Shown here piece after piece: positions 78 through 57,367 of a stretch of DNA of 64,000 nt. The notes beneath the pieces are model-generated. The model was not told the origin of the DNA. It did no database searches and was given only the letters and a program-made list of their open reading frames with translations. The stretch comes from Candidatus Magasanikiibacteriota bacterium. Its GTDB lineage: Bacteria; Patescibacteriota; Patescibacteriia; Magasanikbacterales; GWA2-37-8. The position numbers were made by a program, and so were the translations under genes. Where the stretch lies: the NCBI GenBank assembly GCA_023246725.1, contig JAHFHV010000001.1, positions 13,618-77,617 on the forward strand. Direction: 5' to 3'. The first letter of the stretch is position 1, and every line of letters starts with the position of its first letter.

Positions 78-94
78 ATGCGTTGCCATAAATA

Positions 95-215
95 CCCCTT
101 CCCTCGCCCTCCCCTTAAGAGGGGGAGGAGAATAGCGAACGAACGACGCTCGTTGTCGCGTTGGCTCCCTCCCCTGTTAGGGGAGGGACAGTGGGAGGGG
201 TATTTGGAGCCATTG
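95..215. repeat. Twin-hairpin CT/GA-rich palindromic element (family 5), same family as insert in recG at 49995-50082
   Basis: Hairpins cctcccc-ttaa-gagggggagg and ctccctcccctgttaggggagggac; sequence architecture shared with recG insert. Confidence 0.5.
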
Positions 216-3099: not shown

Positions 3100-5565
3100 T
3101 TAGATAATAGTGACACTCGCCACTTTATCACCCTCTTCTTTAAAGCGCATCAGGCGAACACCCTGGGTGGCTCTCCCGGTGGTGTTAATTGATTTGAAAG
3201 GTAGGCGGATGACCTGGCCTTTGCCACTCATCATCATTAAGTCTTGGTTTTCCGCATTGGCGCGATTAATAACCTTGGCGTATACAATCGGGCCGGTTTT
3301 GGCGGTAACCTCGGCGGTTTTAATACCACTGCCGCCGCGGCCTTGCACTTTGTATTCATTTAGTTCGGTACATTTGCCAAGGCCATTAGCGCCCACGGTG
3401 AGGAATTCTAGGCTTTGGTTTTTGGGGTCCACAATATCCATGCCAATCACCGTGTCATCACTCCGAAGGCGCATGCCGCGTACGCCGGCAGCCGTGCGGC
3501 CCATACTGCGGACGTCTTTTTCTTTAAAGCGGATGGCCTGGCCACCTTTGGTCGCAATCATAAGTTCATCATTTCCAGTCGATGGCTTGACCCATTCTAA
3601 ATTATCATCGCCCTTAAGTTTAAGAGCGATAAGCCCACTCCGGCGAACATTAGCAAAATCGGCTAGTTCAGTTTTTTTGATGAGTCCTTTGGTTGTGACC
3701 ATCACTAAGTGTTTAATTTTTTCAAGGTTACTCATGGGCAGGAGTGCCGTAATGGTTTCGTTCGGGGCCAATTGTAAAAAGTTAACGAGGGCCTGGCCTT
3801 TGGCGGTGCGGCTGCCTTGGGGAATATCATAGGCCATGAGCTGAAATACCCGGCCGCGGCTGGTGAAAAACAAAATATTGTCGTGCGTGCTCACCGTCAG
3901 GAGTTGGTCCACGGATTCGTCTTCTTTGGTGGTAACACCAATCACGCCTTTGCCGCCGCGCGATTGCTGTTTGAAGGTGTCGGGCGGCAGGCGTTTAATG
4001 TAGCCATCGGTGGTTGTCATTACCATGGTTGGTTCGTTGGGGATCAGGTCTTCGGTAGTAAATTCTTTCACACCGTGGGCAATAATTTGGGTCTTGCGGT
4101 CATTGCCGTATTTCTCTTTGAGCGTTATGGTCTCGGTTTTTACAATGCCGAGAATCTTGCTCTCGGACGCTAAAATTGATTCCAATTCTTTAATGATGAA
4201 TTTTTTTTCTTTTAATTCATCTTCAATTTTTTGGCGCTCTAAGTTGGCTAACTGTTGCAGGCGCATTTCCAAAATCGCCGTAGTTTGCCGGTCGGTGAAT
4301 TTGAATTTTTTCATGAGTTCAACTTTGGCATCGTCTTTGTCTTTGGCCGCCCGGATGGTTTTGATAACCAAATCGATTTTATCCAGCGCCATACTTAAGC
4401 CTTCTAAAATATGGGCGCGGTCTTTATTTTTGACCAAATCAAACTCGGTGCGGCGGCGAATAACCACCTGGCGGTGCTTAATAAATTCCTCTAAAATATT
4501 TTTGATGTTGAGGACGCGCGGCTGAATGCCGTCGACCAGGGCCAGCATGTTGTAGTGGAAGGTGGTTTGAAGAGCGGTGTGGTTGTAGAGTTGGTTTAGA
4601 ATCTTTTTGGGATAAGCGTCTTTTTTCATTTCTATCACCACGCGCACACCGTCTTTATTAGATTCATCCCGAATGTCTTTAATACCTTCAATTTTTTTCT
4701 CTTGGACCAGGCCCGCAATTTTCTCAATCAGTTCCGCCTTGTTCACTTGATAAGGCATTTCGGTAACAATTATGCGGTACTGTCCATTTTTTGTTTCCTC
4801 AATTTCGGCTTTGGCGCGCATTACCACGCCGCCCCGGCCGGTCGCAAAGGCCGCCGCGATATCTTTTTTGCCATACACAATGCCGCCGGTCGGGAAATCT
4901 GGCCCCTGGATAATTTCATCCAGGTCTTCAATGGTAGTTTTGGGTTTGTCAATTAAGGCCACCACGCCGTCACAGAGTTCGCGCAGATTATGTGGGGGGA
5001 TAGACGTGGCCATACCAACCGCGATGCCGACCGTGCCGTTTAAGAGCAGATTGGGAACTTGCGTTGGTAAGACAGTTGGTTCTTGGTGTGAGCCGTCGTA
5101 GTTCGGGATGAAGTTAACGGTATCTTTGTCGATATCGGCGAGCATCTCTTCGGCCAGGGCGGTGAGGCGGGCTTCGGTGTAGCGCATGGCCGCGGCGCTG
5201 TCGCCATCCATACTGCCAAAGTTACCTTGGCCATTTACTAATTGGTGACGCATAGCAAAATCTTGGGCCATGCGAACCATGGAATCGTAAATGGCAGCGT
5301 CGCCGTGGGGGTGGTATTTGGCCATCACCTCACCCACCACGTGCGCGGATTTGCGAAAACGCGCGGTGTGGCGCAGGCCCAAATTGCCCATAGCATAGAG
5401 GATGCGGCGGTGCACGGGCTTGAGGCCGTCGCGTACATCGGGGAGCGCGCGCGAAATAATAACGCTCATGGCGTATTCCAAATATGATTGTTTCACTTCG
5501 TCCACAATCGGGGTGGGAGTAAGGCGGCCGATGTTGTTTTTAATAAGAGGAAGTTGTTCGGACAT
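3100..5565 (-). CDS. gyrA: DNA gyrase subunit A
   Basis: [28 protein letters not shown], active-site Tyr region, C-terminal beta-pinwheel repeats; 821 aa. Confidence 0.92.
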
Positions 5566-5590
5566 AGGATTTATTTATGTGATTTGATTT

Positions 5591-5710
5591 GTCATTCCGA
5601 ATCCCCCGTCACAGGGGGTGAGGAATCTCTGTCCAATCGTTGTCATTCCGACCGTAGTGGAGGAATCTCGCCAACAATCGCGAGATCCCTCGGCTGCGCT
5701 CGGGATGACA
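5591..5710. repeat. MITE-like palindromic element family 1 (GTCATYCYGA...GGATGACA), 1.5 copies
   Basis: Terminal inverted repeats gtcattccga/cgggatgaca; related copies at 13178, 16076, 23146, 25217, 27229, 45026, 49713. Confidence 0.8.
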
Positions 5711-6131: not shown

Positions 6132-6236
6132 ACAAAATGACAAAATCCAAATGACAAATGTCAAATCAAATCCAAAATCCCAATTCTAGAATTTGATATT
6201 TGAGCTTGATTTGACGTTTGAAATTTGTCATTTGAT
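6132..6236. repeat. Inverted-repeat element family 2 (caaatgtcaaat / atttgacatttg)
   Basis: Copies at 47992, 50969, 52215 (inside radA), 57313. Confidence 0.7.
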
Positions 6237-6282
6237 ATTAAACTTTAGCTTTAATTTTTTTTACAGCACATAAAAGCTGTTT

Positions 6283-9687: not shown

Positions 9688-9727
9688 AAATATTAAACAG
9701 ATATTAAGAAAATATTAAACGAATATT

Positions 9728-13067: not shown

Positions 13068-13177
13068 GAAATCCTCCTTGGTCCAAGTTGGACACTTTAC
13101 CCTACAATATTTTGGCCAGTTTGTCAAGGTTGTGCTATACTGTAAGCAGGGTTAACTCATAGCCAATCTCATCAACT

Positions 13178-13269
13178 GTCATTCTGACCCCGCACTTGCG
13201 GGGGAAGAATCTCTGTCCAATTGGTCAAATAACGACCGACAGAGATCCTTCACTGCGTTCAGGATGACA
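13178..13269. repeat. MITE family 1 copy
   Basis: gtcattctgaccc...gttcaggatgaca. Confidence 0.8.
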
Positions 13270-16061: not shown

Positions 16062-16075
16062 CACTCTACCGTTTG

Positions 16076-16186
16076 TCATCCTGAGCGTAGCGAAGGATCT
16101 CTGTCTTGTTCAATTGTTAAATTGCTGTATTGTTGGTGATTGGTAGAGAGATCCTTCAGTCGCTGCGACGCTTCTTCAGGATGACA
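16076..16186. repeat. MITE family 1 copy
   Basis: tgtcatcctgagcgtagcgaaggatctc ... cttcaggatgaca. Confidence 0.8.
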
Positions 16187-21134: not shown

Positions 21135-23093
21135 TCATTCCGTTAGAAGAGAAACTTCCTCGCCCATAAAGTCCATGGTTTTGCCGGTAACGGTGTCATC
21201 GGCGGTGACATGGACTTTGGAAATAAGCGTATTTTGCGTGGGGTTGTCTTTATTGAGCACAATCGTAAACGGAAGCGCCAGCGTATCCACGCTCACTGGC
21301 ATGTCCGGAATGTGCCAGGTAAGTTTCTGCGTCTTGGCGTCATAGGCAACGCTTCCCGCCGGGATTGAGGAGCTTACATAGGATAAAGCCACGTCGCCAA
21401 ACACGTCAGCCGACAGGGAAATATTCTTGAGCGCGTGGAATGAATTGGCCAGCACCCAATGCCCAGCAAATTGTTTTTTACCGGCCCCGTTTATCAAGCG
21501 CTCGGTTTTTTCGCTAAAAACAAGATCGGAATTGAGCGTAATGGCAAGACGATTGCTCTCCAAGGTTTGTTTAGCGCCGTTGTCATCAGCAAAATCAACC
21601 GCGGCTCTGGCCATAATGGCGCTTGCCGTCAGCGCCGACAGGTCAAAATTCTTGCCATCTTTAATTGGTAATCGTACATCCACCGAAATTTCCTCTCCGG
21701 GTTTTACTTTGGCCAGTTCGGGAATGGTTTGGCTATTCCACGTAATGCTCCCGCGGCGCATTGTGTCCGAAAGTTTTTTGCCAAACACATCAGCATTGTA
21801 CGGTTCGTTCAGCTCGCTCCAATTTAGCACGCTCTGGTTTTTATCATTAGCTGGGGCGTCAAATACCAGCGTTAGGCTAGCATTTTTAAGATTGTGGTCA
21901 GTGTTATTTTTAAGGCGGACCGTGGCGTTTAAGGTGTCGCCGGGCTGGGCGTCAAAATTACCGAGCGTGCCATTAATTGCCAGATTAAAGTCTAAATTAT
22001 TTTTTGACAAGGCGGTGATGATAGTACTGCTCGCCACAGTTAACACGCGGTCTGTGTTTGGGATCGAAAAGGCAATCAGGCCGGATAGTGAACTGGAAAC
22101 CGCGGTGTTGTCTGTAAATTTTCCTACCAGCTTAAATACGGTTTGCGCCAGTGTTGACGTGGCAGTCGCGGCGCTGGCCGGGCTTACTGTCCAGCGATTT
22201 TTATTAAGCCCGGGGGTGGATGAAACGAGCGTGAAACCGCTGGGCAGCTGGGGCATGAGGAAAAGCCCGGGCAGGGCGGTTAGGCCGGTGTTTTTTACAG
22301 TAAAGACATACGCAACAGCTTGGCCAAGGCTCGCCGTGTCTGGTCCGGCTAAGGCCAGGCTTAAAGGCGAGGTGGCCAAAGTAATAGCTAAAGTAGCGGC
22401 GGTTTGCAATTCGGATTTAAAGTTAGTGGGGGAATATTTTATAAACACGCGCCAGCTTTCGCTGGCCCCCAGGGGGGCGAATTCTGCTCCAGTTAAAGTT
22501 AAGGCGCCAGAGGCGCGGGGGGCCAATGTTCCGAGCGCCCATTCATTTTGTTTGGCATTAGTAGCGAGCACAGAGCTTTTGGCGAGCACGAATCCAGCGG
22601 GGTAATTAATATTAAGTCTGACATTATTCATTGCCACCGTGTCGTTATTTTTATACTCGATAGTATAAGTAACTGGAGCTCCCAGACTAACCATGGTTGG
22701 CCCGCTAATAACCACTGCCAAAGTATCTTTAGGCGGCGCTTGATGCGCCGGAGCCAGGCGCGCGCCAATCCAAATTACGATTCCAACAACTACGGCCGCT
22801 ATTAAGAGGCGCGAAAAAAACCGCCCGAAGGCCGATGATTTTTTGATGTCGATTTTTCGAACGTCAGAATCAGCGTTGTTTTTATAGAGCGACGCGAGGG
22901 TTTGATTCATTTCCGAACGCGCTGAACTGGTTTTAGCGGCAGTCATTTTTTTAGTTCTTACGGGAGTTTTGCGCCTCTCGACTACGCTCGAGGGCCGGCG
23001 TTTTTTTCCGCCCAAGGCGGATCCGCCTTGGGCGGAAGGCGGCCTAATTTCTGGTGCCGGAGTAGAAGAAAAAATCGGCGTTTCGTCTGGCAT
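21135..23093 (-). CDS. Hypothetical large exported/anchored protein with repetitive beta-rich regions
   Basis: Low-complexity basic N-terminus, TM, about 550 aa Thr/Ser/Ala/Leu-rich repeats. Confidence 0.5.
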   Translation of the reverse strand: MPDETPIFSSTPAPEIRPPSAQGGSALGGKKRRPSSVVERRKTPVRTKKMTAAKTSSARSEMNQTLASLYKNNADSDVRKIDIKKSSAFGRFFSRLLIAAVVVGIVIWIGARLAPAHQAPPKDTLAVVISGPTMVSLGAPVTYTIEYKNNDTVAMNNVRLNINYPAGFVLAKSSVLATNAKQNEWALGTLAPRASGALTLTGAEFAPLGASESWRVFIKYSPTNFKSELQTAATLAITLATSPLSLALAGPDTASLGQAVAYVFTVKNTGLTALPGLFLMPQLPSGFTLVSSTPGLNKNRWTVSPASAATATSTLAQTVFKLVGKFTDNTAVSSSLSGLIAFSIPNTDRVLTVASSTIITALSKNNLDFNLAINGTLGNFDAQPGDTLNATVRLKNNTDHNLKNASLTLVFDAPANDKNQSVLNWSELNEPYNADVFGKKLSDTMRRGSITWNSQTIPELAKVKPGEEISVDVRLPIKDGKNFDLSALTASAIMARAAVDFADDNGAKQTLESNRLAITLNSDLVFSEKTERLINGAGKKQFAGHWVLANSFHALKNISLSADVFGDVALSYVSSSIPAGSVAYDAKTQKLTWHIPDMPVSVDTLALPFTIVLNKDNPTQNTLISKVHVTADDTVTGKTMDFMGEEVSLLTE

Positions 23094-23145
23094 AGTGATT
23101 GTACAATTTATTAATAATAAAAATTTTAAAAAAATATATCAAATT

Positions 23146-23226
23146 GTCATTCTGAGTGAAACGAAGAATCTGTTTCGATTGGCCAAACAACAACCAACTA
23201 GATCCTTCGCTCTGCTCAGGATGACA
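23146..23226. repeat. MITE family 1 copy
   Basis: gtcattctgagtgaaacgaagaatct...ctgctcaggatgaca. Confidence 0.8.
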
Positions 23227-25858: not shown

Positions 25859-25993
25859 TCTTTATTATACACTACTTATGCACAATTCCCAAGCCTTGTT
25901 TTAGTGTTGCCATTTCTAGGCGCGGGGAGTATTATTATAGCGGTAGCGGTGTTAGATATTGCGAAGATATTAAGAGAATATTAAAAAAATATT

Positions 25994-27205
25994 ATGTTAT
26001 ATTTAAGCGAGCTTTTAAAACGCCCGATTCGCGACAGTTCGGACACCAAAGTCGGGCGGCTTGTGGATATTGTGATTAGTCCCCGGGCCGGGGAGTATCC
26101 GCCGCTCTTGTTTTTGGTTATGGAAGCAAAGCGGACTGAACAGCGGATTTTTATTTCGTATGCCTATGTGGCTAATGTAAGCCGCGAAGAAATTGCCTTA
26201 AAACATTTGTTTAAAACCATTCCCGAAGGCGCTCCAGCCGACGGAGCGGTGTGGTTGTGCCGCGATATTTTGGACGAACAGATTGTGGATGTGGAAGGCG
26301 CGCGGGTGGTACGCGTCAACGACTTGCGTCTGGGGACTTTTGAAAATCAATTATGCGTGCTGGGGATTGACGTGAGTTTTAAAGGGCTCCTGCGCCGTCT
26401 TGGCCTCTCGGGTATGGATGTGTTTGAGATGTGGCCAGTTAATTTAATTGACTGGCGGAAAGCGCAACTCGTCAAGGGGGTATTAAAGCTGGATACGATT
26501 TTAAAAGATTTGGTAAAAATCCACCCGGCTGACCTGGCTAACATTGTGGAAGATTTGAGTTTGAAGCAAGGTGGCAAACTGGTGAGAAGTTTGGATGCCG
26601 CGGCCGCGGCGCATGTTTTGGAAGAACTGGATCCGCATATTCAAAAAACTCTGGTGCATTATTTGGGGCCGGAGCGGGCCTCCCAGATTGTAGCGCAAAT
26701 GTCGGTTGATGAGACGGTTGATCTGTTAAAAATGCTGCCCAAACAAGAGGCAACGGAATTTTTGTCGTACATCCAGGGCAGCAAGCTGGCCAAGGTTAAA
26801 AAATTGATCAGTTACTCCGAAGACAGCGCCGGCGGGCTTATGACTACTGAGCACGTGGCGGCCCGGCCGGATTGGACCGTACTTCAGACCATTGACGAGG
26901 TACGCCGCTTATCGGACCGCATGCGTTCCATTGTGCATGTGTATATAACCGATGATGAGGGTTATTTTAAAGGTTCGGTGTCGCTCCGGCGCCTGCTGTT
27001 GGCGCGCCCGGGCGACGCGCTTAAAAATATTATGAAACGCCTGCCCAAACGCAACGTATTAAAAATTGATGATTCGATTAATAAAGTAATTAAAATGATG
27101 ACTAAATACGATTTGTACACCGCGGCCGTTTTGGACAAAGAGCATAAACTGGTGGGAGTCGTAACGATTGACGACGTGATGCGACACCTGGTGCCAAATG
27201 CCTAA
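25994..27205 (+). CDS. Soluble PRC-barrel + MgtE-N + CBS-pair protein, no membrane domain
   Basis: MgtE N-domain-like acidic helical region, tandem CBS; lacks MgtE TM helices. Confidence 0.65.
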   Translation: MLYLSELLKRPIRDSSDTKVGRLVDIVISPRAGEYPPLLFLVMEAKRTEQRIFISYAYVANVSREEIALKHLFKTIPEGAPADGAVWLCRDILDEQIVDVEGARVVRVNDLRLGTFENQLCVLGIDVSFKGLLRRLGLSGMDVFEMWPVNLIDWRKAQLVKGVLKLDTILKDLVKIHPADLANIVEDLSLKQGGKLVRSLDAAAAAHVLEELDPHIQKTLVHYLGPERASQIVAQMSVDETVDLLKMLPKQEATEFLSYIQGSKLAKVKKLISYSEDSAGGLMTTEHVAARPDWTVLQTIDEVRRLSDRMRSIVHVYITDDEGYFKGSVSLRRLLLARPGDALKNIMKRLPKRNVLKIDDSINKVIKMMTKYDLYTAAVLDKEHKLVGVVTIDDVMRHLVPNA

Positions 27206-27228: not shown

Positions 27229-27324
27229 TGTCATTCTGAGCAAAGCGAAGAATCTCTGTCCATCATTCACTTACAATAGAGCAATTGAACGAGACAGAGA
27301 TCCTTCACTGCGTTCAGGATGACA
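27229..27324. repeat. MITE family 1 copy
   Basis: gtcattctgagcaaagcgaagaatctc ... gttcaggatgaca. Confidence 0.8.
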
Positions 27325-36337: not shown

Positions 36338-36343
36338 ACAAGT

Positions 36344-36895
36344 GTTTATAGCAGATGATCGCCCGCTCAACGCGCAAGCGCCTGAGCGGGAGGAAAGTCC
36401 GAACACCCTCAGTTTTTTCGCTACCTGCTGAGAAAAGGATAGTGGGTAACACCCACCGTTCCGATGGCAACGTCGGAAAAGGGACAGTGGCACAGAGACA
36501 ATACTACTTTGTCGCGCCGCAGCCTTGGCGAAGGCGGAACCATAAGAATCCCCGCCTTCGCCAAAGCTATGGCGCGGCAAAGGAAAGGTGAAAAGTGTAT
36601 GGGAGTTTTGGTTCTTAAGACCAAAGCTACGATACTCCGTCCCGTAGCAATGCGGGATGTGTGCTAAACCCTGTCTGGTGCAAGAGCAGCGTTTTCGTCG
36701 CAAGGCGAATTCGTAAAGTTCGCTCGCATTGCCTCGCCGAAGCCCCGCAACTGCGGGGCGAAGGCAGGCTTGATCCGGTTAGCAATAACCGGGCTAGATA
36801 AATGATCATCACCACGGATTCTTTGCACGGATCAACACAGATATTAGTGAAGATCAGTGTAAAAAATCCGTGGTACAAAATTCGGCTTATCGCTG
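36344..36895 (+). ncRNA. rnpB: RNase P RNA (bacterial type A-like) with expansion hairpins
   Basis: P4 halves gaGGAAAGUCCGaac (bulged U) and acaaaaUUCGGCUUAucg, GGGUAAcaCCCACC, cUAGAUaAAUGAuc; ends in terminator hairpin 36896-36934. Confidence 0.65.
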
Positions 36896-36963
36896 TAAAC
36901 CGCGCACCACGACAAAATTTGTCGTGGTGCGTTTGTTAGTCATAAGAAGTTGGGGACTGGCTA

Positions 36964-44968: not shown

Positions 44969-45025
44969 TTTTGGGGTATACTGGTTCCTTATTAAATAGT
45001 CTGCATTGCTCAATGCATTTTTACT

Positions 45026-45135
45026 GTCATCCTGAGCGTAGCGAAGGATCTCTGTCCGGTTCAATTCTCACATTGTTCTATTGCTATATTGTTAGTGATT
45101 GAGACAGAGATTCCTCCTTCGTCGTCGGAATGACA
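45026..45135. repeat. MITE family 1 copy
   Basis: gtcatcctgagcgtagcgaaggatctc ... cgtcggaatgaca. Confidence 0.8.
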
Positions 45136-45142
45136 AGACGTT

Positions 45143-47992
45143 ATGAAAGATCAGTTAACTATACGAGGCGCGCGCGTCCACAACCTCAAAAATCTTTCCA
45201 TTACTATCCCCAAGCACAAATTAGTCGTGCTTACGGGTTTATCCGGGTCGGGCAAATCCAGCTTAGCCTTTGACACTATTTATGTGGAAGGCCAGCGCCG
45301 GTACGCCGAATCATTGTCCAGTTACGCCCGGCAGTTTATGGAAGTGCGTGATAAGCCGGATATTGATGGGATTGAGGGATTGTCTCCCACCATCGCGATT
45401 GACCAAAAAGTATCCACCCAGAACCCGCGTTCCACCGTTGGCACGGTAACGGAAATTTATGATTATCTCCGGTTGCTGTTCGCGCGCGCGGGCGTGCAGT
45501 ATTGCCCGGAGTGCCGCGTGGCCGTGGAGGTGTACACCCCTGGGGCGATTAGCGCCAAGTCCAGGGAGCTGGCTCGCAAAACTAAAGAACTGACGATTTT
45601 TGCTCCATTGATTCGGGATGGTCGGGTTGATTCTAAAAGCCTTCTTGAAACCGTGGAAAAATCCGGCTATGAATGGGTGCGGGTTGATGGCGAGCTTTTA
45701 AAAATAAATGATTTAGCCACGTATCGCTTTGCTCCGGAGACGAATTACACAGTGGAACTTTTAATTGGCAAATTAACGGACATTAAAAAAGACGACCCGA
45801 CCAAGTTTATTGAATCTGCCCTGGAGCTTACCAACGGCCTGGTGATTGTGGCAACTGACGATACCAGTCGGCTGTTTGCCACGATTGGCCTCTGTCCGCG
45901 GTGCGGCAAAACCTTGCCCAGCCTTGATCTGCGCAGTTTTAGCTTTAACAGCCCATACGGAGCTTGCCCACGCTGTACCGGCCTGGGGGTTACCATGGAA
46001 GTAGACCCCAATTTAGTAATTCCCAATACGCGGCTAACCTTATCCGAAGGCGCCATTCAGCCCTGGACGCGCATTACCGGCAACCAAAGTTTGTATCAAA
46101 AAATGCTCTCCGCAGTGGCGGAGAGGCACGGGTTTTCCACCAGCATTCCCGTGGCCGATTTGCCGGCAAAAATTTTGGATATTATTTTGTACGGCGGGGG
46201 CGTTGAGCAGTACATGATTGAAAATAAAAAAATTAGCTTTGCCGGGGTGATTCCGGATTTAATGCAAAAGCATTTAGATACCACGTCCGATTACGTGCGC
46301 AAAGAAATTGAACAATACATGCGCGAGAAAATTTGTCCCATCTGCCAGGGAAAACGTTTGCGGCTGGAGTCGCTGGCGGTCCGGGTAGGGGATTTTACGA
46401 TTGCGGAACTGTCTAACTTAAGCGTGGCGGAATGCCGGGCGGCAGTGGAAAGGTTATCCGCTATAGGCGGAGGCGAAAGGTTTAAGGTGATTGAACCGAT
46501 TGCGAAAGAGATTGGCCCGCGCTTAAAAAATTTAGAACGAGTAGGCCTGGGGTATTTAAGTTTAAGCCGCTCCATGAATACCTTGTCGGGCGGTGAAGTT
46601 ACGCGCGTCCGCTTGGCCTCGCAATTGTCGGCCGGTCTTACGGGCGTGATTTATGTTTTGGATGAGCCGTCGGTGGGCCTGCACCCGCGCGACAATGAGC
46701 AGTTGATTGATACCTTAAAATATTTGCGCGACCTAGGCAATTCCGTTATTGTGGTGGAACACGACCCGGCCATGATGCTGGCGGCCGATTACTTAATTGA
46801 TATTGGCCCGGGCGCCGGGGTGTATGGCGGCGAAGTACTCATCGCGGGGAACTTGCGCGAATTTAAAAAAGCCGCGGCTCGCCTAGACTCGGGGCGGGCT
46901 AAAGGAAAATCTGCCAGTGGCCAGCATTCGCTGACAGCCGACTATTTATTTGGTCAAGCGGATTTTAGCGATTTGTACCCCAAAAAATCAGACGGAAAGA
47001 AGCCGCCAACGGGCAAAAGTTTGAGCATTATGGGAGCGAGCGCGTTTAATTTAAAAAATATTGATGTGGAGATTCCGCTCGGCAAGCTTGTTTCCGTCAC
47101 GGGCGTGTCTGGTTCCGGCAAGTCAACTTTAATTATAGATATTTTAGGCAAGGCATTATCCAAATATTTTTACCGCGCCAAAGACGAGCCGGGCGCGCAT
47201 AAAACCATCAAAGGGCTCTCTAACATAGACAAAGTGATTGCCATTGACCAAAGCCCCATTGGCCGCACGCCCCGTTCTAACCCCGCTACCTACACCGGTG
47301 TGTTTACACTTATTCGGGATGTGTTCGCGTCCCTTACCGAAGCCCGCATGCGCGCGTACGACGCCGGTAAATTTAGTTTTAACGTTAAAGGCGGGCGGTG
47401 CGAGGCCTGCGCCGGCGAAGGCTATGTGCGCATCCCCATGCAATTTTTGGCCGATGTGTTTGTGGAGTGTAGCGAGTGCAATGGCCTAAGGTACAATCAA
47501 GAGGCTTTGGAAATTCATTACCACAATAAGCACATTGCCGACGTGTTAAAGATGACGGTGGAAGAAGCGCGCAGTTTTTTTAGCGAGTTTCCGCCTATAG
47601 CCGACAAGCTCAACATTCTGCGCGAAGTGGGCCTGGGCTACGTGGAACTGGGCCAGCCGGCTACCACCATATCGGGCGGCGAGGCCCAGCGCATAAAATT
47701 GGCGCAAGAGTTGTCCCGCCCGTCTACCGGCAAGACACTCTACATTTTGGACGAACCAACGACCGGACTGCATTTTGAAGATACCAAACGACTCTTGCGA
47801 GTGCTTCGTCAGTTAGTCAGCAAAGGTAATTCGGTGGTGATTATTGAACATAACGTGGATGTGATTCGTTGCAGTGATTGGGTAATTGATTTAGGGCCCG
47901 AGGGCGGCAACCAAGGCGGCCTGGTGGTAGCCGAAGGCACGCCAGGTGACGTGAAGAAGAATAAGAAGAGCTGGACGGGACGGTACCTGTGA
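45143..47992 (+). CDS. uvrA: Excinuclease ABC subunit A
   Basis: Two ABC ATPase modules ([20 protein letters not shown]), zinc-finger cysteines; 949 aa. Confidence 0.93.
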
Positions 47993-48017
47993 AATATCAA
48001 ATATCAAATGTCAAAGT
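47992..48017. repeat. Repeat family 2 fragment (atatcaaatatcaaatgtcaaag)
   Basis: Matches 6132/57313. Confidence 0.55.
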
Positions 48018-48034: not shown

Positions 48035-48072
48035 GTCATTGCGAGCCCCGCTCAAGCGGGGCGTGGCAATCC
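48035..48072. repeat. Half-copy of MITE family 1 variant (gtcattgcgagccccgctcaagcggggcgtggcaatccc)
   Basis: Reverse complement matches 25310-25352. Confidence 0.65.
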
Positions 48073-48668: not shown

Positions 48669-50939
48669 ATGAACCTCACAACCCCGGTAAGCGAACTCAC
48701 CAAGGTAGGCAAAACCGCGGCCAAGCGCCTGGGGTATCTTGGCATTCACACCGCCCAGGACTTATTGTATTACTTTCCGTTTCGCTACGAAGACTATCGC
48801 CGCGTGGTTTTAATTAAAGATTTGCGAGACGGAGAGAGTGTTACCATTAGTGGAGCAGTGGAACTAATTTCCAATCGGCGCAGTTTCCGCAGCCGCAAGA
48901 TGGTTACCGAGGCGCTCATTCGCGACCACAGCGGGAGCTTGCGCGTGGTGTGGTTTAACCAGCCGTTTATTGGCAAGGCGCTCCGCCCGGGCGATAAAGT
49001 TTATCTCTCGGGCGCTGTTAAAGGCGATCTGCTGGGGGCCCAAATGGTCAGCCCGGCTTATGAAAAAATTACGTCGCGGGAAACTACCTCAACCGCGCGC
49101 CTGGTGCCAATGTACGCGCTTACGGCCGGACTTACCCAAAAACAAATTCGATTTTTAGCCCAGCAAGTAGCGCCGTTGGCCGAGCAGCTGTCTGATTGGC
49201 TGCCAGCCAAAATTTTAGGACAGTATGATTTGATTCCACTGCCCCAGGCTCTCCGCGGCATTCATTTTCCGATTGATGAAGCGGCTCTTAAAAAGAGCAC
49301 CGAGCGATTGAAGTTTGATGAGTTATTGCTGCTCCAGCTTCAGGCTGAAGACAGTCGAAAAAACAGATTAGACCACAGCGCGCCCCAGCTTACTTTTCAC
49401 CAAAGCGCTCTGCAAGAGTTTGTGGGCCGCCTGCCGTTTACGCTTACCAAAACCCAAAAAATCGCGGCCTGGGAAATACTTCAAGACATCCAAAAATCAA
49501 CTCCGATGAACCGCCTGCTCTCGGGCGATGTTGGCTCGGGCAAAACCGTGGTGGCGGCTATGGCGCTGTACTCAGCATTTTTAAATGGTTACCAAGGAGT
49601 GCTCATGGCGCCAACCGAGATACTCGCGGCCCAACACTTTGCGTCTTTGTGTAGATTGTTTAGCGGTCTCCCTATTTCAATTGGGTTACTTACGGCTAAT
49701 CAAGTTTCAACTGTCATTCTGAACGGAGCGCAGCGCAGTGAAGAATCTCTGTCTCAATCAATCAACGGAGAGAGATCCTTCGCTACGCTCAGGATGACAG
49801 TTGCTAAAAAAGAAAAAGAAGGATTTTTGAAAAAATTAGCTATCGGAGAAATAAAGATCATCGTTGGCACGCACGCTTTGCTTTCGGAAGGGGTACATTT
49901 TAAAAAACTCGGCCTGGTGATTGTGGATGAGCAACATCGATTTGGCGTGGAACAGCGGAAGGTTATTAAGGAGAAATCATTGACGACTTCCAGCCAGACC
50001 TCTCTCACCGCTCTCTCCTCTGCAGAGGAGAGAGGTACGGTCACACCCTCTCCTTTGCAAAGGAGAGGGCAGGGAGAGGTCTCGCAATCGGCGCATTTTT
50101 TAAGTATGACGGCCACTCCCATCCCGCGTTCATTGGCTCTTATGTTGTATGGCGACCTCGACATTTCTATCATCAGTGAACTTCCGCCGGGACGCAAGCC
50201 AATTATCACGCGCCTGGTGGAGCCAGCCAAACGGGAAAAAGCCTATGAGTTTATTCGGGCACAGGTGAAAAATGGACGACAAGTATTTGTGGTGTGTCCG
50301 CTGATTGAAGATAAACAGGCTGGTGCGATTGTTGCCCCCCTGCGAGGGGGTGGTTCTAACGACAAAAGATCAGTCTTGAGTGAATATGACAAACTATCCC
50401 AACAAATTTTTCTTGACCTCCGCGTAGGCTATCTACACGGTAAAATGAAAGCTAAAGAAAAAGATGGGGCAATGGAGAAATTTAAACAAGGCGAGACCGA
50501 TATTCTTGTGTCCACGTCGGTCGTAGAAGTCGGCGTGGACATCCCGAACGCCAGTGTGATGATGATTGAAGGCGCGGATAAATTTGGCCTGGCGCAACTG
50601 CACCAATTCCGCGGACGCGTGGGCAGGTCAATCCATCAATCATATTGTTTGCTGTTTACCGATAGTGATTCGTATCGCTCTTCCGAGCGATTAAAATATT
50701 TTGAAACGCACCACGATGGTTTTAAACTAGCGGAAAAAGATTTGGCTATGCGGGGGCCAGGCGAAGTGTATGGCACGGAGCAAAGCGGCCTGCAACAACT
50801 CCGGCTCGCGAAATTGACTGATCAGGGCATAATAAAAAAAGCGCGCGAGGTGGCGCGCGAGGTGGCTCCAGACATTAAGAAATATCCTAAACTTTTAGAA
50901 AAGATTAAAGAGTGGGAGCGAGTGGTGCATTTGGAATAA
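48669..50939 (+). CDS. recG: ATP-dependent DNA helicase RecG, with in-frame palindromic insertions
   Basis: Wedge domain, helicase motifs (GDVGSGKT, DEQHRFG), C-terminal TRG motif; 756 aa. Confidence 0.9.
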   Translation: MNLTTPVSELTKVGKTAAKRLGYLGIHTAQDLLYYFPFRYEDYRRVVLIKDLRDGESVTISGAVELISNRRSFRSRKMVTEALIRDHSGSLRVVWFNQPFIGKALRPGDKVYLSGAVKGDLLGAQMVSPAYEKITSRETTSTARLVPMYALTAGLTQKQIRFLAQQVAPLAEQLSDWLPAKILGQYDLIPLPQALRGIHFPIDEAALKKSTERLKFDELLLLQLQAEDSRKNRLDHSAPQLTFHQSALQEFVGRLPFTLTKTQKIAAWEILQDIQKSTPMNRLLSGDVGSGKTVVAAMALYSAFLNGYQGVLMAPTEILAAQHFASLCRLFSGLPISIGLLTANQVSTVILNGAQRSEESLSQSINGERSFATLRMTVAKKEKEGFLKKLAIGEIKIIVGTHALLSEGVHFKKLGLVIVDEQHRFGVEQRKVIKEKSLTTSSQTSLTALSSAEERGTVTPSPLQRRGQGEVSQSAHFLSMTATPIPRSLALMLYGDLDISIISELPPGRKPIITRLVEPAKREKAYEFIRAQVKNGRQVFVVCPLIEDKQAGAIVAPLRGGGSNDKRSVLSEYDKLSQQIFLDLRVGYLHGKMKAKEKDGAMEKFKQGETDILVSTSVVEVGVDIPNASVMMIEGADKFGLAQLHQFRGRVGRSIHQSYCLLFTDSDSYRSSERLKYFETHHDGFKLAEKDLAMRGPGEVYGTEQSGLQQLRLAKLTDQGIIKKAREVAREVAPDIKKYPKLLEKIKEWERVVHLE
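49713..49799. repeat. MITE family 1 copy inserted in-frame in recG (87 bp = 29 codons)
   Basis: gtcattctgaacggagcgcagcgcagtgaagaatctctgtc...gagatccttcgctacgctcaggatgaca. Confidence 0.85.
49995..50082. repeat. Family 5 twin-hairpin element inserted in-frame in recG
   Basis: ctctcctctgcagaggagag and ccctctcctttgcaaaggagaggg hairpins; encodes SLTALSSAEERGTVTPSPLQRRGQGE. Confidence 0.7.
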
Positions 50940-50968
50940 TCTAAAATGAGGCGATGATAAACAAGTAT

Positions 50969-51018
50969 TGATTTTTTGAGCTTGATTTGTCATTTGACCT
51001 TTGGATTTTGATATTTTA
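50969..51018. repeat. Repeat family 2 copy
   Basis: tttgagcttgatttgtcatttgacctttggattttg, matches 6195-6236. Confidence 0.6.
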
Positions 51019-52377
51019 AGCCGTATGTTTAATCAATTCCTGAATATTCACAACGTCGATAATTTTTAATTTATAATTTATAATTTTCAATTTCTTTCCT
51101 CCGTTCGTAATAACTCTTTTTAATCCAACCAACTCACATTCCTTCAGTCGTTTTTCCATTTGCCCTACTGGCCGTACTTCACCACTTAAACCAATTTCGC
51201 CAAATACTACCAGGTCACTTCCGAGTACCTTGTCTTTATAGGAGCTCGCAATGGATAGCGCCACCGCCAAATCTGCGGCCGGTTCACTGGCTTCCAGGCC
51301 TCCCACCACATTCACATGCACATCATATTGTTCCAGTTTCAGTCCAGCGCGCTTTTGCAAAACCGCTATCAACACGTGCAATCGATTAATATCAAATCCA
51401 CTCGCCTTGCGCGTGGGATACCCAAACGCCGTCTTGGTTACTAGTGCCTGAATTTCCACCAAGAGCGGGCGCGTTCCTTCCAAGAGGCAGGTGAGGACAT
51501 TCCCGGGCGCGTTTTCACCGCGCTCCAGTAAAAATTGCGCGGACGGATTTTTCACTTCTTTGAGTCCTTCAGAGTGCATTGCAAAAATCCCTACTTCATC
51601 CGTGGCGCCAAAACGGTTTTTCACCGTACGCAGAATTCGGTAATCATGGTGGCGGTCGCCCTCGAGGTACAGCACTGTATCTACCACATGCTCCAAAGTT
51701 TTCGGTCCAGTAATCGTCCCATCTTTAGTTACGTGGCTCACCAGGACTACCGCGGTGCCGGTGGTTTTGGTGGCTTCGAGAAGTTTTACCGCGCTGGCGC
51801 GAATCTGGTTCACGTTCCCGGGTTCGCCTTCCACTTCCCCGGAAGAGATGGTTTGGATGGAATCGATAATAGCCAGAGCTGGTTTTGTAGTTTGAATCGT
51901 CGCAATGATCGTTTCAACATCAGTTTCGTTCCCCAGGCGCAGTGTCCCCGAAGAAATATGTAACCGGTCAGCCCGGAGTTTAATTTGCTCAATGGATTCC
52001 TCCGCCGAAAGATACAAGGTGCTGGGGATTGCCGCGGCCAACTGCAAGGCCAAGGTCGATTTTCCAATCCCCGGCTCACCACCCAGCACAATCAAACTCC
52101 CGGGCACCAGGCCCCCGCCCAGCACGCGGTCCAGCTCGCCAATATTGGTTTTAATACGCGTGAGATTTTTTCCTTCAATTTCTTGCAAACCAAACGTCTT
52201 GGCTGTGGGATAATTACTATTTGAATTTTGGTTTTTGGATTTGATTTGGAATTTGACATTTGACATTTGACATTTTTCAATCGTTCCCCATTTACCACAT
52301 TCCAAACACCGGCCCGTCCATTTAGTGAACTGGGCGTCGCAGTTGGCGCAGGCAAAAATGAGGGAGTCTTTGGGCAT
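51016..52377 (-). CDS. radA: DNA repair protein RadA/Sms, with family-2 repeat inserted in linker
   Basis: N-terminal C4 zinc finger CANC...CLEC, RecA-like Walker A GEPGIGKST, KNRFG motif, C-terminal Lon-like domain. Confidence 0.88.
   Translation of the reverse strand: MPKDSLIFACANCDAQFTKWTGRCLECGKWGTIEKCQMSNVKFQIKSKNQNSNSNYPTAKTFGLQEIEGKNLTRIKTNIGELDRVLGGGLVPGSLIVLGGEPGIGKSTLALQLAAAIPSTLYLSAEESIEQIKLRADRLHISSGTLRLGNETDVETIIATIQTTKPALAIIDSIQTISSGEVEGEPGNVNQIRASAVKLLEATKTTGTAVVLVSHVTKDGTITGPKTLEHVVDTVLYLEGDRHHDYRILRTVKNRFGATDEVGIFAMHSEGLKEVKNPSAQFLLERGENAPGNVLTCLLEGTRPLLVEIQALVTKTAFGYPTRKASGFDINRLHVLIAVLQKRAGLKLEQYDVHVNVVGGLEASEPAADLAVALSIASSYKDKVLGSDLVVFGEIGLSGEVRPVGQMEKRLKECELVGLKRVITNGGKKLKIINYKLKIIDVVNIQELIKHTA
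52215..52276. repeat. Repeat family 2 copy in-frame in radA (encodes KCQMSNVKFQIKSKNQNSNSN)
   Basis: atttgacatttgacatttgacattttt on + strand inside minus-strand ORF. Confidence 0.75.
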
Positions 52378-56074: not shown

Positions 56075-57331
56075 TTATAAGTTTACCTGAAACACCCCCT
56101 GTTTATTGGGATCCGTAAACAGCACCTTATTTTTTTTAGCATCGTAGGATATTGAATTGATGTGAAAGTTATTACCCAAGGGAACATTGGTGGTCAAACC
56201 GGTTTTCAAATCAATTTTGTACATGTCATCGGGCAGAGTGTCGGCAATGGCCGGCGACATGCCCGCTCCTTGGGGCAAGTCGCGCGGCACAGCGCAGAAC
56301 AGGGTGTTGTCATCGCCAAACGAACATTTGTTAGCCCAGGTGTTTAAGCGCAGAGTTTGGCGGTTGCTGCCAATATCATCACCATACGAATTCACCACCC
56401 ACAGCTCTGGTTTAAAATCGCTGCGGGCGCTATCCACGCTGTAAAGCAGTTTTTTACCGGTCGGCGACCACTGCGGCTGAAAATTCAACCCTTCCACGAC
56501 CGTGGATTTAAAATTTTCCCCGTTCAAGCCCACAAATAATACTTCCACCCGGTCGGCCCCTTGCGGCGCCCCGGTGCGGGACAAAGCCACGGTTTGCCGG
56601 CTGGGCGACCAATCCACGGTAACGCGGTCGCCATTATCGCCCAAGGGTTCAATTAGCTTGGTGCCGGTGCCGTCGTCTTTGGCTACCACCAGCCAGCGGT
56701 TTTCCGGTGAGAGTCCTAGGCTTTTGGCCGCTACTTCCGTGCTATCTGGGGAAAAGGAAAAATCTTGCCAGTGTTTGGGCAAGGTAATTTGTTTTTTAAG
56801 ATCAAAATTGTACAAAATTTTGGAGCTGTCGGGGTACTCCAGCACCGCTTTGTTACCAGTTTTTGCCCAGGTAACATTTTGGACGTTATAGAATACTTGG
56901 TCGCTTAAGGCAGTGGTTTGCCCAGCGTCGCCCACGCGGTAAAATTTGCCGTCTTGCGCGTTATGGTAGCGAAAATCGCCGCTCGCCGCCAGAGAAGAAA
57001 AAACGGCCGCGTCAGCATTAAGCTGAGTTACCGGTTCCGGCGTAAAGTAGCTGGGCGTCGCTCCAGGAATGGCGCCTGCCGTCGGCAAGCCTCCTTCCGC
57101 GCCGCCGCTTGGTGTTGCCTCGCCCGCCCCGGGCACGCGTTCTCCCGCGCCCGGCAGCTGGCCAGGCGCTGCGCCCGGGCGAGTTCCGCCGACCGTGGTG
57201 GGGGGCGGCGTGGCCTTAAAAAACAGCGTGAAAATGCCCCAGGCAATTAAAGCCGAGATTGTAAGCAAGCCGAGGATGAGGAGAATTCGTTTGAGTCCAG
57301 AAGACATAGGAAGTGAAATATCAAATGACAA
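56075..57331 (-). CDS. Membrane-anchored PD40 (TolB-like) beta-propeller repeat protein
   Basis: N-terminal TM, Pro/Gly-rich linker, repeated propeller blades. Confidence 0.55.
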   Translation of the reverse strand: MSFDISLPMSSGLKRILLILGLLTISALIAWGIFTLFFKATPPPTTVGGTRPGAAPGQLPGAGERVPGAGEATPSGGAEGGLPTAGAIPGATPSYFTPEPVTQLNADAAVFSSLAASGDFRYHNAQDGKFYRVGDAGQTTALSDQVFYNVQNVTWAKTGNKAVLEYPDSSKILYNFDLKKQITLPKHWQDFSFSPDSTEVAAKSLGLSPENRWLVVAKDDGTGTKLIEPLGDNGDRVTVDWSPSRQTVALSRTGAPQGADRVEVLFVGLNGENFKSTVVEGLNFQPQWSPTGKKLLYSVDSARSDFKPELWVVNSYGDDIGSNRQTLRLNTWANKCSFGDDNTLFCAVPRDLPQGAGMSPAIADTLPDDMYKIDLKTGLTTNVPLGNNFHINSISYDAKKNKVLFTDPNKQGVFQVNL

Positions 57332-57350
57332 ATGTCAAATACCAAATGTG
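57313..57350. repeat. Repeat family 2 copy
   Basis: tatcaaatgacaaatgtcaaataccaaatg. Confidence 0.6.
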
Positions 57351-57367
57351 ATTATCGCCGTGATTTT

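What the first reader, a model, noticed from the sequence alone, without database searches (positions are those of the whole stretch)
48669..50939. Palindromic repeat elements inserted in-frame inside recG (RPE-like behaviour)
Two different repeat families are embedded in the recG reading frame without disrupting it. A family-1 MITE (49713-49799, exactly 87 bp = 29 codons, translating ...VILNGAQRSEESLSQSINGERSFATLRMT...). A family-5 twin-hairpin element (about 49995-50082, translating SLTALSSAEERGTVTPSPLQRRGQGE). A third mini-hairpin (50335-50350, cccccctgcgaggggg) also lies in frame. The same family-1 element occurs intergenically at least six times in this window. In-frame colonisation of essential genes by palindromic elements is best known from Rickettsia RPEs. 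Seeing it here for two unrelated repeat families suggests active or recent selfish-element spread that generates novel peptide insertions.
Basis: seen in the sequence. Interest (0 to 1): 0.65.

Follow-up and report, generated by a model that had tools for sequence, protein, structure and literature searches.

The report
Palindromic repeats inserted in-frame in recG
A DNA-repair helicase gene (recG) of an uncultured Patescibacteria bacterium carries two, possibly three, small palindromic repeat elements that read through in frame as extra loops; this is like the Rickettsia case, but the elements belong to families found across many bacterial phyla.

Summary
recG (48669-50939, 756 aa) is intact and carries an 88-nt TGTCAT...ATGACA inverted-repeat element (49712-49799) and a 93-nt twin GC-hairpin element (49993-50085), both in frame. 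Alignments to solved RecG structures and to 119 orthologs show both are insertions. Shortest orthologs have 14 and 29 residues where this protein has 49 and 64. AlphaFold gives pLDDT below 50 only there and in a third loop. Six other sites in the window carry the first family, apparently all intergenic.

The third mini-hairpin is real but not significant alone. It may be a remnant of a twin-hairpin element at that site in close relatives.

New context:
- 14 of 120 Patescibacteria RecGs carry 22 complete elements of this family, in three of four insertion-prone loops.
- The arm sequence occurs verbatim in many phyla, mostly intergenically.
- Each arm is a covarying hairpin around GCGNAGC.
- No target-site duplications were found.

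The element therefore looks more like a REPIN than a classical MITE.

"Recent or active" spread is not shown. Arm subfamilies are conserved between distant genomes, and the closest relatives share the same junction. Verdict: a genuine new example of a known phenomenon.

The parts
48669..50939 (+). recG coding sequence (756 aa), the host gene. All helicase motifs are intact.
   Evidence: ORF. Pfam finds RecG_wedge, DEAD, Helicase_C and RecG_dom3_C. Best solved relative is 1gm5 RecG, E = 1.7e-142. The AF2 model matches 1gm5 at TM 0.64-0.66. Invariant motif residues are conserved.
49712..49799 (+). Element 1: TGTCAT...ATGACA palindromic element (88 nt; complementarity extends to 49708-49803). It is read in frame as residues 349-377.
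   Evidence: Inverted repeat. Arms found. Fold z = -6.5. Only the used frame is open. Absent from the shortest orthologs and from solved RecGs. pLDDT is below 50 at residues 353-377.
49712..49748 (+). Left arm of element 1, a long variant with a 17-nt inner segment.
   Evidence: near-identical to the left arms of the elements inserted at site 3 of RecG P0051 and P0061. By my count from those printed sequences, 40/42 and 39/42 when the adjacent CTGTC is included.
49773..49799 (-). Right arm of element 1 (TGTCATCCTGAGCGTAGCGAAGGATCT on the minus strand), containing the GCGTAGC mini-hairpin core.
   Evidence: identical to the arms at 16074 and 45025. The exact 27-mer occurs in many phyla.
49993..50085 (+). 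Element 2: twin GC-rich hairpin element (93 nt). It lies within the 35-residue site-2 insertion, residues about 438-472.
   Evidence: I1, I4, I5, I6. Fold z = -8.7. Orthologs have a median of 29 residues across this block against 64 here. pLDDT is below 50 at 439-470. Related hairpin modules occur in L123, both intergenic and in genes.
50335..50350 (+). Mini-hairpin CCCCCCTGCGAGGGGG in the site-3 loop (residues about 556-561). Possibly a remnant of a twin-hairpin element.
   Evidence: Present. Fold z is only -1.5. P0002 and P0003 carry a twin CCCCCCTCGAGGGGGG / CCCCCC(C)CGAGGGGGG element at the same loop. pLDDT is below 50 at 550-562.
5590..5710 (.). Family-1 solo arm (5590-5628) plus a complete 70-nt element (5641-5710).
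   Evidence: The two overlapping ORFs have no Pfam hit.
13177..13269 (.). Family-1 element, intergenic.
   Evidence: z = -6.8.
16074..16186 (.). Family-1 element, intergenic.
23145..23226 (.). Family-1 element, intergenic.
27229..27324 (.). Family-1 element, intergenic.
   Evidence: z = -8.1.
45025..45135 (.). Family-1 element, intergenic, upstream of uvrA.
90..205 (.). Twin GC-hairpin element with the same architecture as element 2 (outer inverted repeat plus two internal hairpins). Sequence similarity is only loose.
   Evidence: I2; z = -8.2.

Best explanation
Small non-coding palindromic repeat elements have landed inside recG and survived there. They survive because they fall in tolerant loops of the helicase, have lengths divisible by three, and have no stop codon in the reading frame.

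Element 1 is an inverted doublet of a roughly 27-40 nt hairpin unit. The unit reads YTGTCAT, a 3-bp stem, GA, a small inner hairpin (often GCGNAGC), GA, the other stem strand, then ATCTC. Element 2 is a twin GC-rich hairpin module.

Shown here:
- both are lineage-specific insertions;
- both belong to multi-copy families;
- element 1's family is cross-phylum;
- its arms are structurally constrained;
- it makes no target-site duplication;
- related elements entered the same RecG loops independently in many Patescibacteria.

Inferred:
- The elements move as single-stranded DNA hairpins, in the manner of REPINs mobilised by an HUH/RAYT-type enzyme, rather than by a cut-and-paste DDE transposase.
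- They are translated into disordered loops.
- They are neutral or mildly harmful passengers rather than adaptations.
For: Insertion status:
- HMMER alignments to RecG 1gm5 and 9wm0 break at residues 343-379 and 438-476.
- The ortholog alignment shows block lengths from 14 (site 1) and 29 (site 2) residues, against 49 and 64 here.

Repeat family:
- 15 arms occur in the window against about 0.1 expected.
- The exact 27-nt arm occurs in at least 120 genome loci from Saccharibacteria, Acidobacteriota, Chloroflexota, Planctomycetota, Nitrospirales, Proteobacteria, Verrucomicrobiota, Pedobacter and Clostridia.
- The 37-nt long-arm variant occurs in at least 120 metagenome loci with GC from 0.34 to 0.69.

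Independent insertions:
- 22 complete elements occur in 14 of 120 RecGs, at three loops and in two different codon phases (VI... versus CH...).
- This was confirmed at DNA level for five relatives.
- P0051 and P0061 carry nearly the same left arm at site 3 that this window carries at site 1.
- The site-1 arm in L127 shares its inner hairpin with an intergenic copy on the same contig.

Structure of the element:
- 83 of 97 distinct arms have a fully complementary 3-bp stem in 10 different pair combinations.
- On 50 distinct 27-nt arms, 97.6% of cells pair against 84% in shuffles (0 of 500 reach it). All 5 pairs show changes on both sides.
- GCGNAGC is the documented 'mini-hairpin DNA' motif, Tm 70-76 C (PMC13037366).
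- 125 arm pairs lie 60-140 nt apart, with the mode at 80-89 nt.
- No target-site duplication of any length from 2 to 9 nt was found in 122 elements.

Tolerance by the protein:
- The AF2 model has pLDDT below 50 at 353-377, 439-470 and 550-562, between confident secondary-structure elements.
- The core matches RecG 1gm5.
- Motif residues are conserved.
- Only the used frame of element 1 is open.

GC-hairpin modules also sit in frame in the Pth and M24-peptidase genes of related contigs.
Against: - No empty-site allele or close relative lacking the inserts was found. The nearest RecG is 67% identical.
- No transposase or RAYT was looked for beyond a search for distant arm pairs, which found none.
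- P0001-P0004 share the identical site-1 junction (CAACTGTCAT / CAACTGTTAT). This suggests one old insertion, yet the hairpins remain well paired and differ between lineages. A purely neutral passenger would be expected to decay. Turnover by gene conversion, or selection on the hairpin, has to be invoked.
- Translation of the inserts is inferred, not observed.
- Arms begin with YTGTCAT, not the GTAG or CGTC tags typical of REPs.
- Cross-phylum conservation is unlike known, species-specific REPINs.
Confidence: 0.75

Rival explanations
1. The palindromes are kept inside recG because they act at the nucleic-acid level. They could be an mRNA structure controlling translation or decay, or a single-stranded DNA signal such as a priming or pausing site. 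On this view the peptide loops are a by-product, and the elements are exapted rather than merely tolerated.
For: Hairpins at the orthologous sites 1 and 2 stay almost perfectly paired in P0001-P0004, although their sequences differ and the host proteins are only 63-67% identical. Arm hairpins covary. GCGNAGC-type mini-hairpins occur at phage and plasmid priming sites (PMC13037366). The same RecG loops are hit again and again.
Against: Most orthologs lack any element at these sites. P0003 has lost half of its site-1 element. Mismatches between the two arms show no strand-consistent G-T bias, so there is no sign of selection on one long RNA hairpin (p = 0.75). The same elements are mainly intergenic elsewhere.
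Confidence: 0.12
2. The inserted segments do not end up in the mature protein. They would be removed or skipped by RNA splicing, translational bypassing (as with phage T4 gene 60 or the mitochondrial 'byp' GC-clusters), or protein splicing.
For: GC-rich mobile hairpins that ribosomes bypass are known in yeast mitochondria (my own knowledge; not checked here).
Against: Both elements have lengths divisible by three. Element 1 is open in exactly the used frame out of six. This is what is expected if they are translated and unnecessary if they are skipped. No Rfam intron or ribozyme family matches; there are only sub-threshold hairpin-like microRNA hits. Segments of 29-35 residues are far too short for an intein, and Pfam finds nothing in them.
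Confidence: 0.04
3. Artefact or decaying gene: the inserts come from mis-assembly of repeats in a metagenome bin, or recG is a pseudogene accumulating junk.
For: The source is a metagenome assembly, and repeats can mislead assemblers.
Against: The identical 756-aa protein lies on two contigs from two different samples. Their DNA is 99.98% and 100% identical to the window, with no gaps. The reading frame is intact, and the nearly invariant RecG residues and motifs are conserved. The core folds confidently as RecG.
Confidence: 0.03

Closest known systems
Rickettsia palindromic elements (RPEs; Ogata et al. 2000, as summarised in PMC10969869)
   Same: Both are multi-copy palindromic repeats that sit in frame inside unrelated protein-coding genes. 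Both add a peptide at sites compatible with the protein fold, and both also occur between genes.
   Different: RPEs are about 150 bp and belong to the genus Rickettsia. Nearly half the copies of three of the ten RPE families lie in ORFs. Here the elements are 60-140 nt with unrelated termini (YTGTCAT) and are found across many phyla. They are overwhelmingly intergenic: 1 of 7 in the window, and about 2 of 121 in the metagenome sample. Sequence relatedness to RPEs could not be tested.
REP / REPIN elements mobilised by RAYT (IS200/IS605-like HUH) transposases
   Same: The unit is a short structured hairpin. Units occur as inverted doublets with a short spacer. They are abundant, mostly intergenic and make no target-site duplication.
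   Different: There is no GTAG or CGTC tag (compare PMC3733652, seen only as a title and abstract). No RAYT gene was identified. The family is conserved almost verbatim across phyla, whereas REPINs are, to my knowledge, species-specific.
Classical bacterial MITEs (Correia/NEMIS, ERIC, BOX, Coxiella QMITE1/2, Anabaena MITEs)
   Same: They are small, non-coding and multi-copy, with terminal inverted repeats starting TG...CA. Occasional in-frame fusions with host ORFs are reported for several of them (PMC10969869; PMC5896051).
   Different: No target-site duplication was found. No parent IS with the same ends was found in the sampled loci. The two arms are themselves covarying hairpins.
Mini-hairpin DNA motif GCGNAGC (Hirao and colleagues; review PMC13037366)
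   Same: The core of the commonest arms is exactly GCGNAGC. It is flanked by GA/GA and a 3-bp stem.
   Different: That literature describes the motif at phage and plasmid priming sites and in engineered oligonucleotides, not as part of a dispersed genomic repeat. Whether the arms fold this way in vivo is untested.

Membership tests
RecG helicase (host gene) | Wedge domain plus two RecA-like helicase domains and the RecG C-terminal domain; fold like 1GM5 | tested here: met
   Pfam finds RecG_wedge, DEAD, Helicase_C and RecG_dom3_C above their cut-offs. 1gm5 matches at E = 1.7e-142. Foldseek to 1gm5_A gives E = 3e-46, TM 0.64/0.66.
Rickettsia palindromic elements (RPE) | Palindromic multi-copy element inserted in frame in ORFs without disrupting them | tested here: met
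Rickettsia palindromic elements (RPE) | Sequence homology to one of the RPE consensus families, in Rickettsia | not testable with these tools
   No RPE library is available, and Rfam has no match. The host is a Patescibacteria bacterium, judged from the names sources give to the closest RecGs.
Rickettsia palindromic elements (RPE) | A large share of copies lies inside ORFs | tested here: not met
   1 of 7 complete copies in the window. About 2 of 121 metagenome copies lie in convincing ORFs. Most genome copies lie in short frames.
Classical MITE (derived from a DDE-transposase IS) | Terminal inverted repeats, small size, no coding capacity, many copies | tested here: met
Classical MITE (derived from a DDE-transposase IS) | Target-site duplication flanking the element | tested here: not met
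   In 122 complete elements, identical flanking k-mers (k = 2-9, three boundary offsets) occur no more often than with shuffled pairing.
Classical MITE (derived from a DDE-transposase IS) | A full-length IS with the same termini | tested here: inconclusive
   No arm pair 400-4000 nt apart enclosing a candidate gene was seen in about 250 loci; the cases listed are neighbouring small elements. The sample was chosen around small elements, so it is not a fair search.
REP / REPIN | The unit is a short imperfect palindrome (hairpin) | tested here: met
   83 of 97 arms have a complementary 3-bp stem. 97.6% of cells pair against 84% in shuffles, and 5 of 5 pairs show double changes.
REP / REPIN | Two units in inverted orientation separated by a short spacer | tested here: met
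   125 arm pairs, 60-140 nt overall, mode 80-89 nt.
REP / REPIN | Conserved GTAG or CGTC tetranucleotide at one end | tested here: not met
   Arms start YTGTCAT.
REP / REPIN | A cognate RAYT (TnpA-REP) gene in the same genome | not tested
   Only 64 kb of the genome is in hand, and the ORFs of the window were not all annotated.

The most novel reading that the evidence does not exclude
The TGTCAT...GCGNAGC...ATCTC doublet may be an undescribed, pan-bacterial, REPIN-like single-stranded-DNA hairpin element. It is absent from Rfam 15 and from the literature I could search. It may have repeatedly colonised permissive loops of RecG, and probably of other proteins, in the small genomes of Patescibacteria. 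On this reading its hairpins persist at orthologous coding positions despite deep host divergence because they are renewed by gene conversion or selected as DNA or RNA structures. Such elements would then be a standing source of new protein loops in this radiation.
Probability: 0.3. Interest if true: 0.7.

Novelty: new member of a known kind. Interest (0 to 1): 0.55.

Why it matters
In-frame colonisation of genes by selfish palindromes has been documented mainly in Rickettsia and a few other bacteria. This case shows it in the Candidate Phyla Radiation, in a core DNA-repair helicase, for two element families at once. The same loops are hit independently in many lineages.

This helps explain why proteins of these organisms often carry odd, low-complexity insertions. 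It warns annotators that peptides such as VILS..., CHPERSEGS... and ...LRMT are repeat-derived. It also points to a very widespread hairpin element whose mobility mechanism is unknown.

The finding does not change what is known about RecG function.

Tried and rejected
- Known RNA family: the Rfam gathering scan of the window found only RNase P RNA and a tRNA. A permissive scan of 49600-50450 gave only sub-threshold microRNA-like hairpin hits.
- Literature by sequence or peptide: searches for GTCATCCTGAGC and similar, and for CHPERSEGS, VILSEAKDL and LRFAQDD, found nothing relevant. Patescibacteria plus MITE, and CPR plus palindromic plus in-frame, also found nothing relevant.
- Pfam on the inserted peptides: no family.
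- One long RNA hairpin selected on one strand: transitions between the two arms are not strand-concordant (273 of 402 observed against 276 expected, p = 0.75). Rejected.
- Target-site duplications: none.
- Specific target motif: flanks are only mildly A/T-rich, with Y at position -1.
- Autonomous parent IS: none seen.
- Search of the 1.84-billion-protein library with the 33-residue insert: one 75-aa hit, so the query is too short to be informative.
- Annotated plasmids: one unannotated match, in a Calothrix plasmid.
- E. coli genomes with the GC-hairpin element: only chance-level matches, so my recollection of a link to enterobacterial BoxC repeats stays untested.
- Recency from arm identity: rejected as an argument, because the same arm subfamilies recur in distantly related genomes.
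Full report
**What is there**

The window encodes an uninterrupted 756-aa ORF at 48669..50939(+).
- Pfam finds the RecG wedge, DEAD, Helicase_C and RecG C-terminal domains.
- The best solved relative is Thermotoga maritima RecG 1gm5, at E = 1.7e-142.
- The names sources give to the closest database proteins place the organism in Patescibacteria, near Candidatus Magasanikbacteria.
- The identical protein is encoded on two contigs assembled from two different samples. Their DNA matches the window at 99.98% and 100% with no gaps. The gene structure is therefore not an assembly artefact.

**Element 1**

An inverted repeat spans 49708-49803, with 26-nt arms that are 85% complementary. Its conserved termini, TGTCAT...ATGACA, lie at 49712-49799.
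- It folds far better than shuffles: -44.7 kcal/mol, z = -6.5.
- It is stop-free in only one of its six frames, the one recG uses.
- A pattern that captures the arm architecture finds 15 arms in the window, against about 0.1 in shuffles. They form seven complete elements and one solo arm.
- The other six sites lie between the long ORFs.

**Element 2 and the third hairpin**

Region 49993-50085 holds two perfect hairpins inside an outer inverted repeat, with z = -8.7. The window holds only one other element of this architecture, at 90-205, and the sequence similarity is loose.

The related contig L123 settles the multi-copy question. The same hairpin-plus-CAGGGTGAGG module occurs there as an intergenic twin, inside the Pth gene, and at two RecG sites. 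The M24 peptidase genes of L123 and L124 also carry extra peptides at one shared site, and L124 has a matching GC hairpin there.

The third hairpin, 50335-50350, exists but is not significant alone (z = -1.5). That loop is of ordinary length for this clade. P0002 and P0003 carry a twin CCCCCC-loop-GGGGGG element at the same loop. A remnant is therefore plausible, but it is an inference.

**Are they insertions?**

Yes, on three lines of evidence.
- HMMER alignments to two solved RecGs split into three blocks. The breaks fall at residues 343-379 and 438-476, with a gap in the third loop.
- In a MAFFT alignment of the 120 best database hits, the site-1 block is 14-71 residues long (median 28, 49 here). 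The site-2 block is 29-64 residues long (median 29, 64 here, the longest of all).
- An AlphaFold2 model built on 70 sequences is confident for the RecG core and matches 1gm5. Its pLDDT is below 50 at 353-377, 439-470 and 550-562. These are loops between a strand and a helix, or a helix and a strand, in the two RecA-like domains. Shorter low-confidence stretches also occur at 39-42, 141-148 and 697-709.

Walker A (GDVGSGKT), DEQHRFG, SMTATPIPR and the arginine-rich C-terminal motif are all conserved.

**The wider picture in RecG**

The same loops are hot spots across Patescibacteria. A peptide pattern finds 22 complete TGTCAT-type elements in 14 of the 120 RecGs: 12 at site 1, 8 at site 3 and 2 at a fourth loop after YEK.
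- They occur in two codon phases (VI... and CH...) and at slightly different positions. Many are therefore independent events.
- I fetched DNA for five relatives and confirmed that the peptides are encoded by palindromic elements.
- P0051 and P0061, only 53-57% identical to this RecG, carry an element at site 3 whose 42-nt left arm is near-identical to the one at site 1 here. By my count it is 40/42 and 39/42.
- The three closest relatives, P0002-P0004, carry other members of the family at exactly the same site-1 junction.

**What kind of element is it?**

- The exact 27-nt arm GTCATCCTGAGCGNAGCGAAGGATCTC occurs in at least 120 genome loci from many phyla.
- The long-arm variant occurs in at least 120 metagenome loci with GC from 0.34 to 0.69.
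- Most copies are intergenic. Only about 2 of 121 metagenome copies sit in convincing genes: a DUF72 protein and what looks, by eye, like a sensor kinase.
- Each arm is itself a hairpin. 83 of 97 distinct arms have a complementary 3-bp stem, in ten different pair combinations.
- On 50 distinct 27-nt arms, the five proposed pairs are 97.6% paired against 84% in shuffles, and all five show compensatory changes.
- The core, GCGNAGC, is the 'mini-hairpin DNA' motif with Tm 70-76 C (PMC13037366).
- Arms come as inverted doublets 60-140 nt long.
- There is no target-site duplication, no clear target motif and no parent IS in the sampled loci.
- Mismatches between the two arms show no strand bias. 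The constraint therefore acts on the arm hairpins, not on one long RNA stem.

This profile fits a REPIN-like element better than a classical MITE. However, the REP tag is absent, no RAYT was sought, and the cross-phylum conservation is unlike known REPINs.

**How it most likely works**

Shown: the insertions, the repeat families, the structured arms, the lack of duplications, the recurrent independent hits, and the tolerant loop positions.

Inferred:
- mobility through single-stranded DNA hairpins;
- survival only of copies that keep the frame open and fall in permissive loops;
- translation into disordered loops;
- little or no benefit to the host.

The open frame and the lengths divisible by three argue for ordinary translation rather than bypassing or splicing.

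**What remains unexplained**

P0001-P0004 share the site-1 and site-2 positions, which suggests old insertions. Yet their hairpins are still almost perfectly paired while differing in sequence. Possible causes are turnover by gene conversion from other copies, self-templated repair of palindromes, selection on the hairpin, or very site-specific re-insertion. I could not separate these.

For the same reason, 'recent or active spread' is not established. Identical arm subfamilies recur in genomes whose RecGs are only 53-67% identical.

**Comparison with what is known**

The behaviour is that of Rickettsia palindromic elements, and of the occasional in-frame MITEs reviewed in PMC10969869 and reported for Coxiella (PMC5896051). 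The element is not an RPE by host, size or share of copies in genes. It fails the target-duplication test for classical MITEs. It meets several, but not all, REPIN features.

I found no description of this family or of in-frame repeats in Patescibacteria in the searchable literature. That does not prove none exists.

**Verdict**

It is a new member of a known kind, with an interesting and possibly undescribed element family behind it.

Noticed in passing
window 23006-23037: A 32-nt perfect palindrome (TTCCGCCCAAGGCGGATCCGCCTTGGGCGGAA) lies in frame near the N-terminus of a 652-aa DUF11-domain protein (ORF 21135..23093, minus strand), encoding PSAQGGSALGGK. Similar peptides (GGQASGSALGGKK) occur in a RecG loop of P0056. 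It may be another in-frame palindrome family.
   Followed up: partly
window 25324-25341, 36742-36759, 48045-48062, 13188-13203: A recurring hairpin of the form GCCCCGC-N4-GCGGGGC. One copy is in frame in a DUF4012 protein ORF (encoding SPAQAGR). One is inside the RNase P RNA gene. One follows uvrA. One forms the inner hairpin of a family-1 arm.
   Followed up: partly
window 36343-36905: The RNase P RNA gene spans 563 nt against a 367-position Rfam model. The large inserts include a 76-nt palindrome at 36507-36582 in the middle of the model, and a second inverted repeat at 36811-36874 near the 3' end. Whether these are repeat-element insertions was not tested.
   Followed up: partly
window 6136-6239, 47989-48015, 50964-51015, 52223-52274, 57313-57353: A/T-rich repeats of the TTTGACATTTGATATT type lie in intergenic regions, including just downstream of recG (families D5 and D6, I1). 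Peptides such as FQISNFKFQI at the variable RecG loops of other Patescibacteria look like translations of similar repeats. That link is my reading and was not checked at the DNA level.
   Followed up: no
L123 4844-4864 (Pth gene 4700..5266); M24 peptidase genes L123 3509..4639 and L124 3910..4953: In related Patescibacteria contigs, GC-rich hairpin modules of the element-2 type sit in frame in peptidyl-tRNA hydrolase (PSPGGRGTQGEGS). The M24 peptidases of both contigs carry extra peptides at the same position, and L124 has a GC hairpin at 4330-4350. The behaviour is therefore not confined to recG.
   Followed up: partly
L127 11120-11165 and 6870-6916: The site-1 arm in recG of P0061 and an intergenic arm on the same contig share the inner hairpin GTACCCCTCGGGGCATAAACT. 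Their 3-bp outer stems differ in a compensating way (TCT/AGA against TGC/GCA).
   Followed up: no
window 9679-9749 and 25945-26015: Three tandem 11-nt units (ATATTAAnnAG-like) occur immediately upstream of two ATG start codons, at 9728 and 25994. This may be a shared regulatory or promoter repeat.
   Followed up: no
L001-L120 (genome contigs) and L129-L248 (metagenome contigs): The 27-nt arm and its 37-nt variant occur verbatim in genomes from many phyla and across GC contents of 0.34-0.69. That degree of conservation is unusual for a dispersed repeat and is unexplained.
   Followed up: partly
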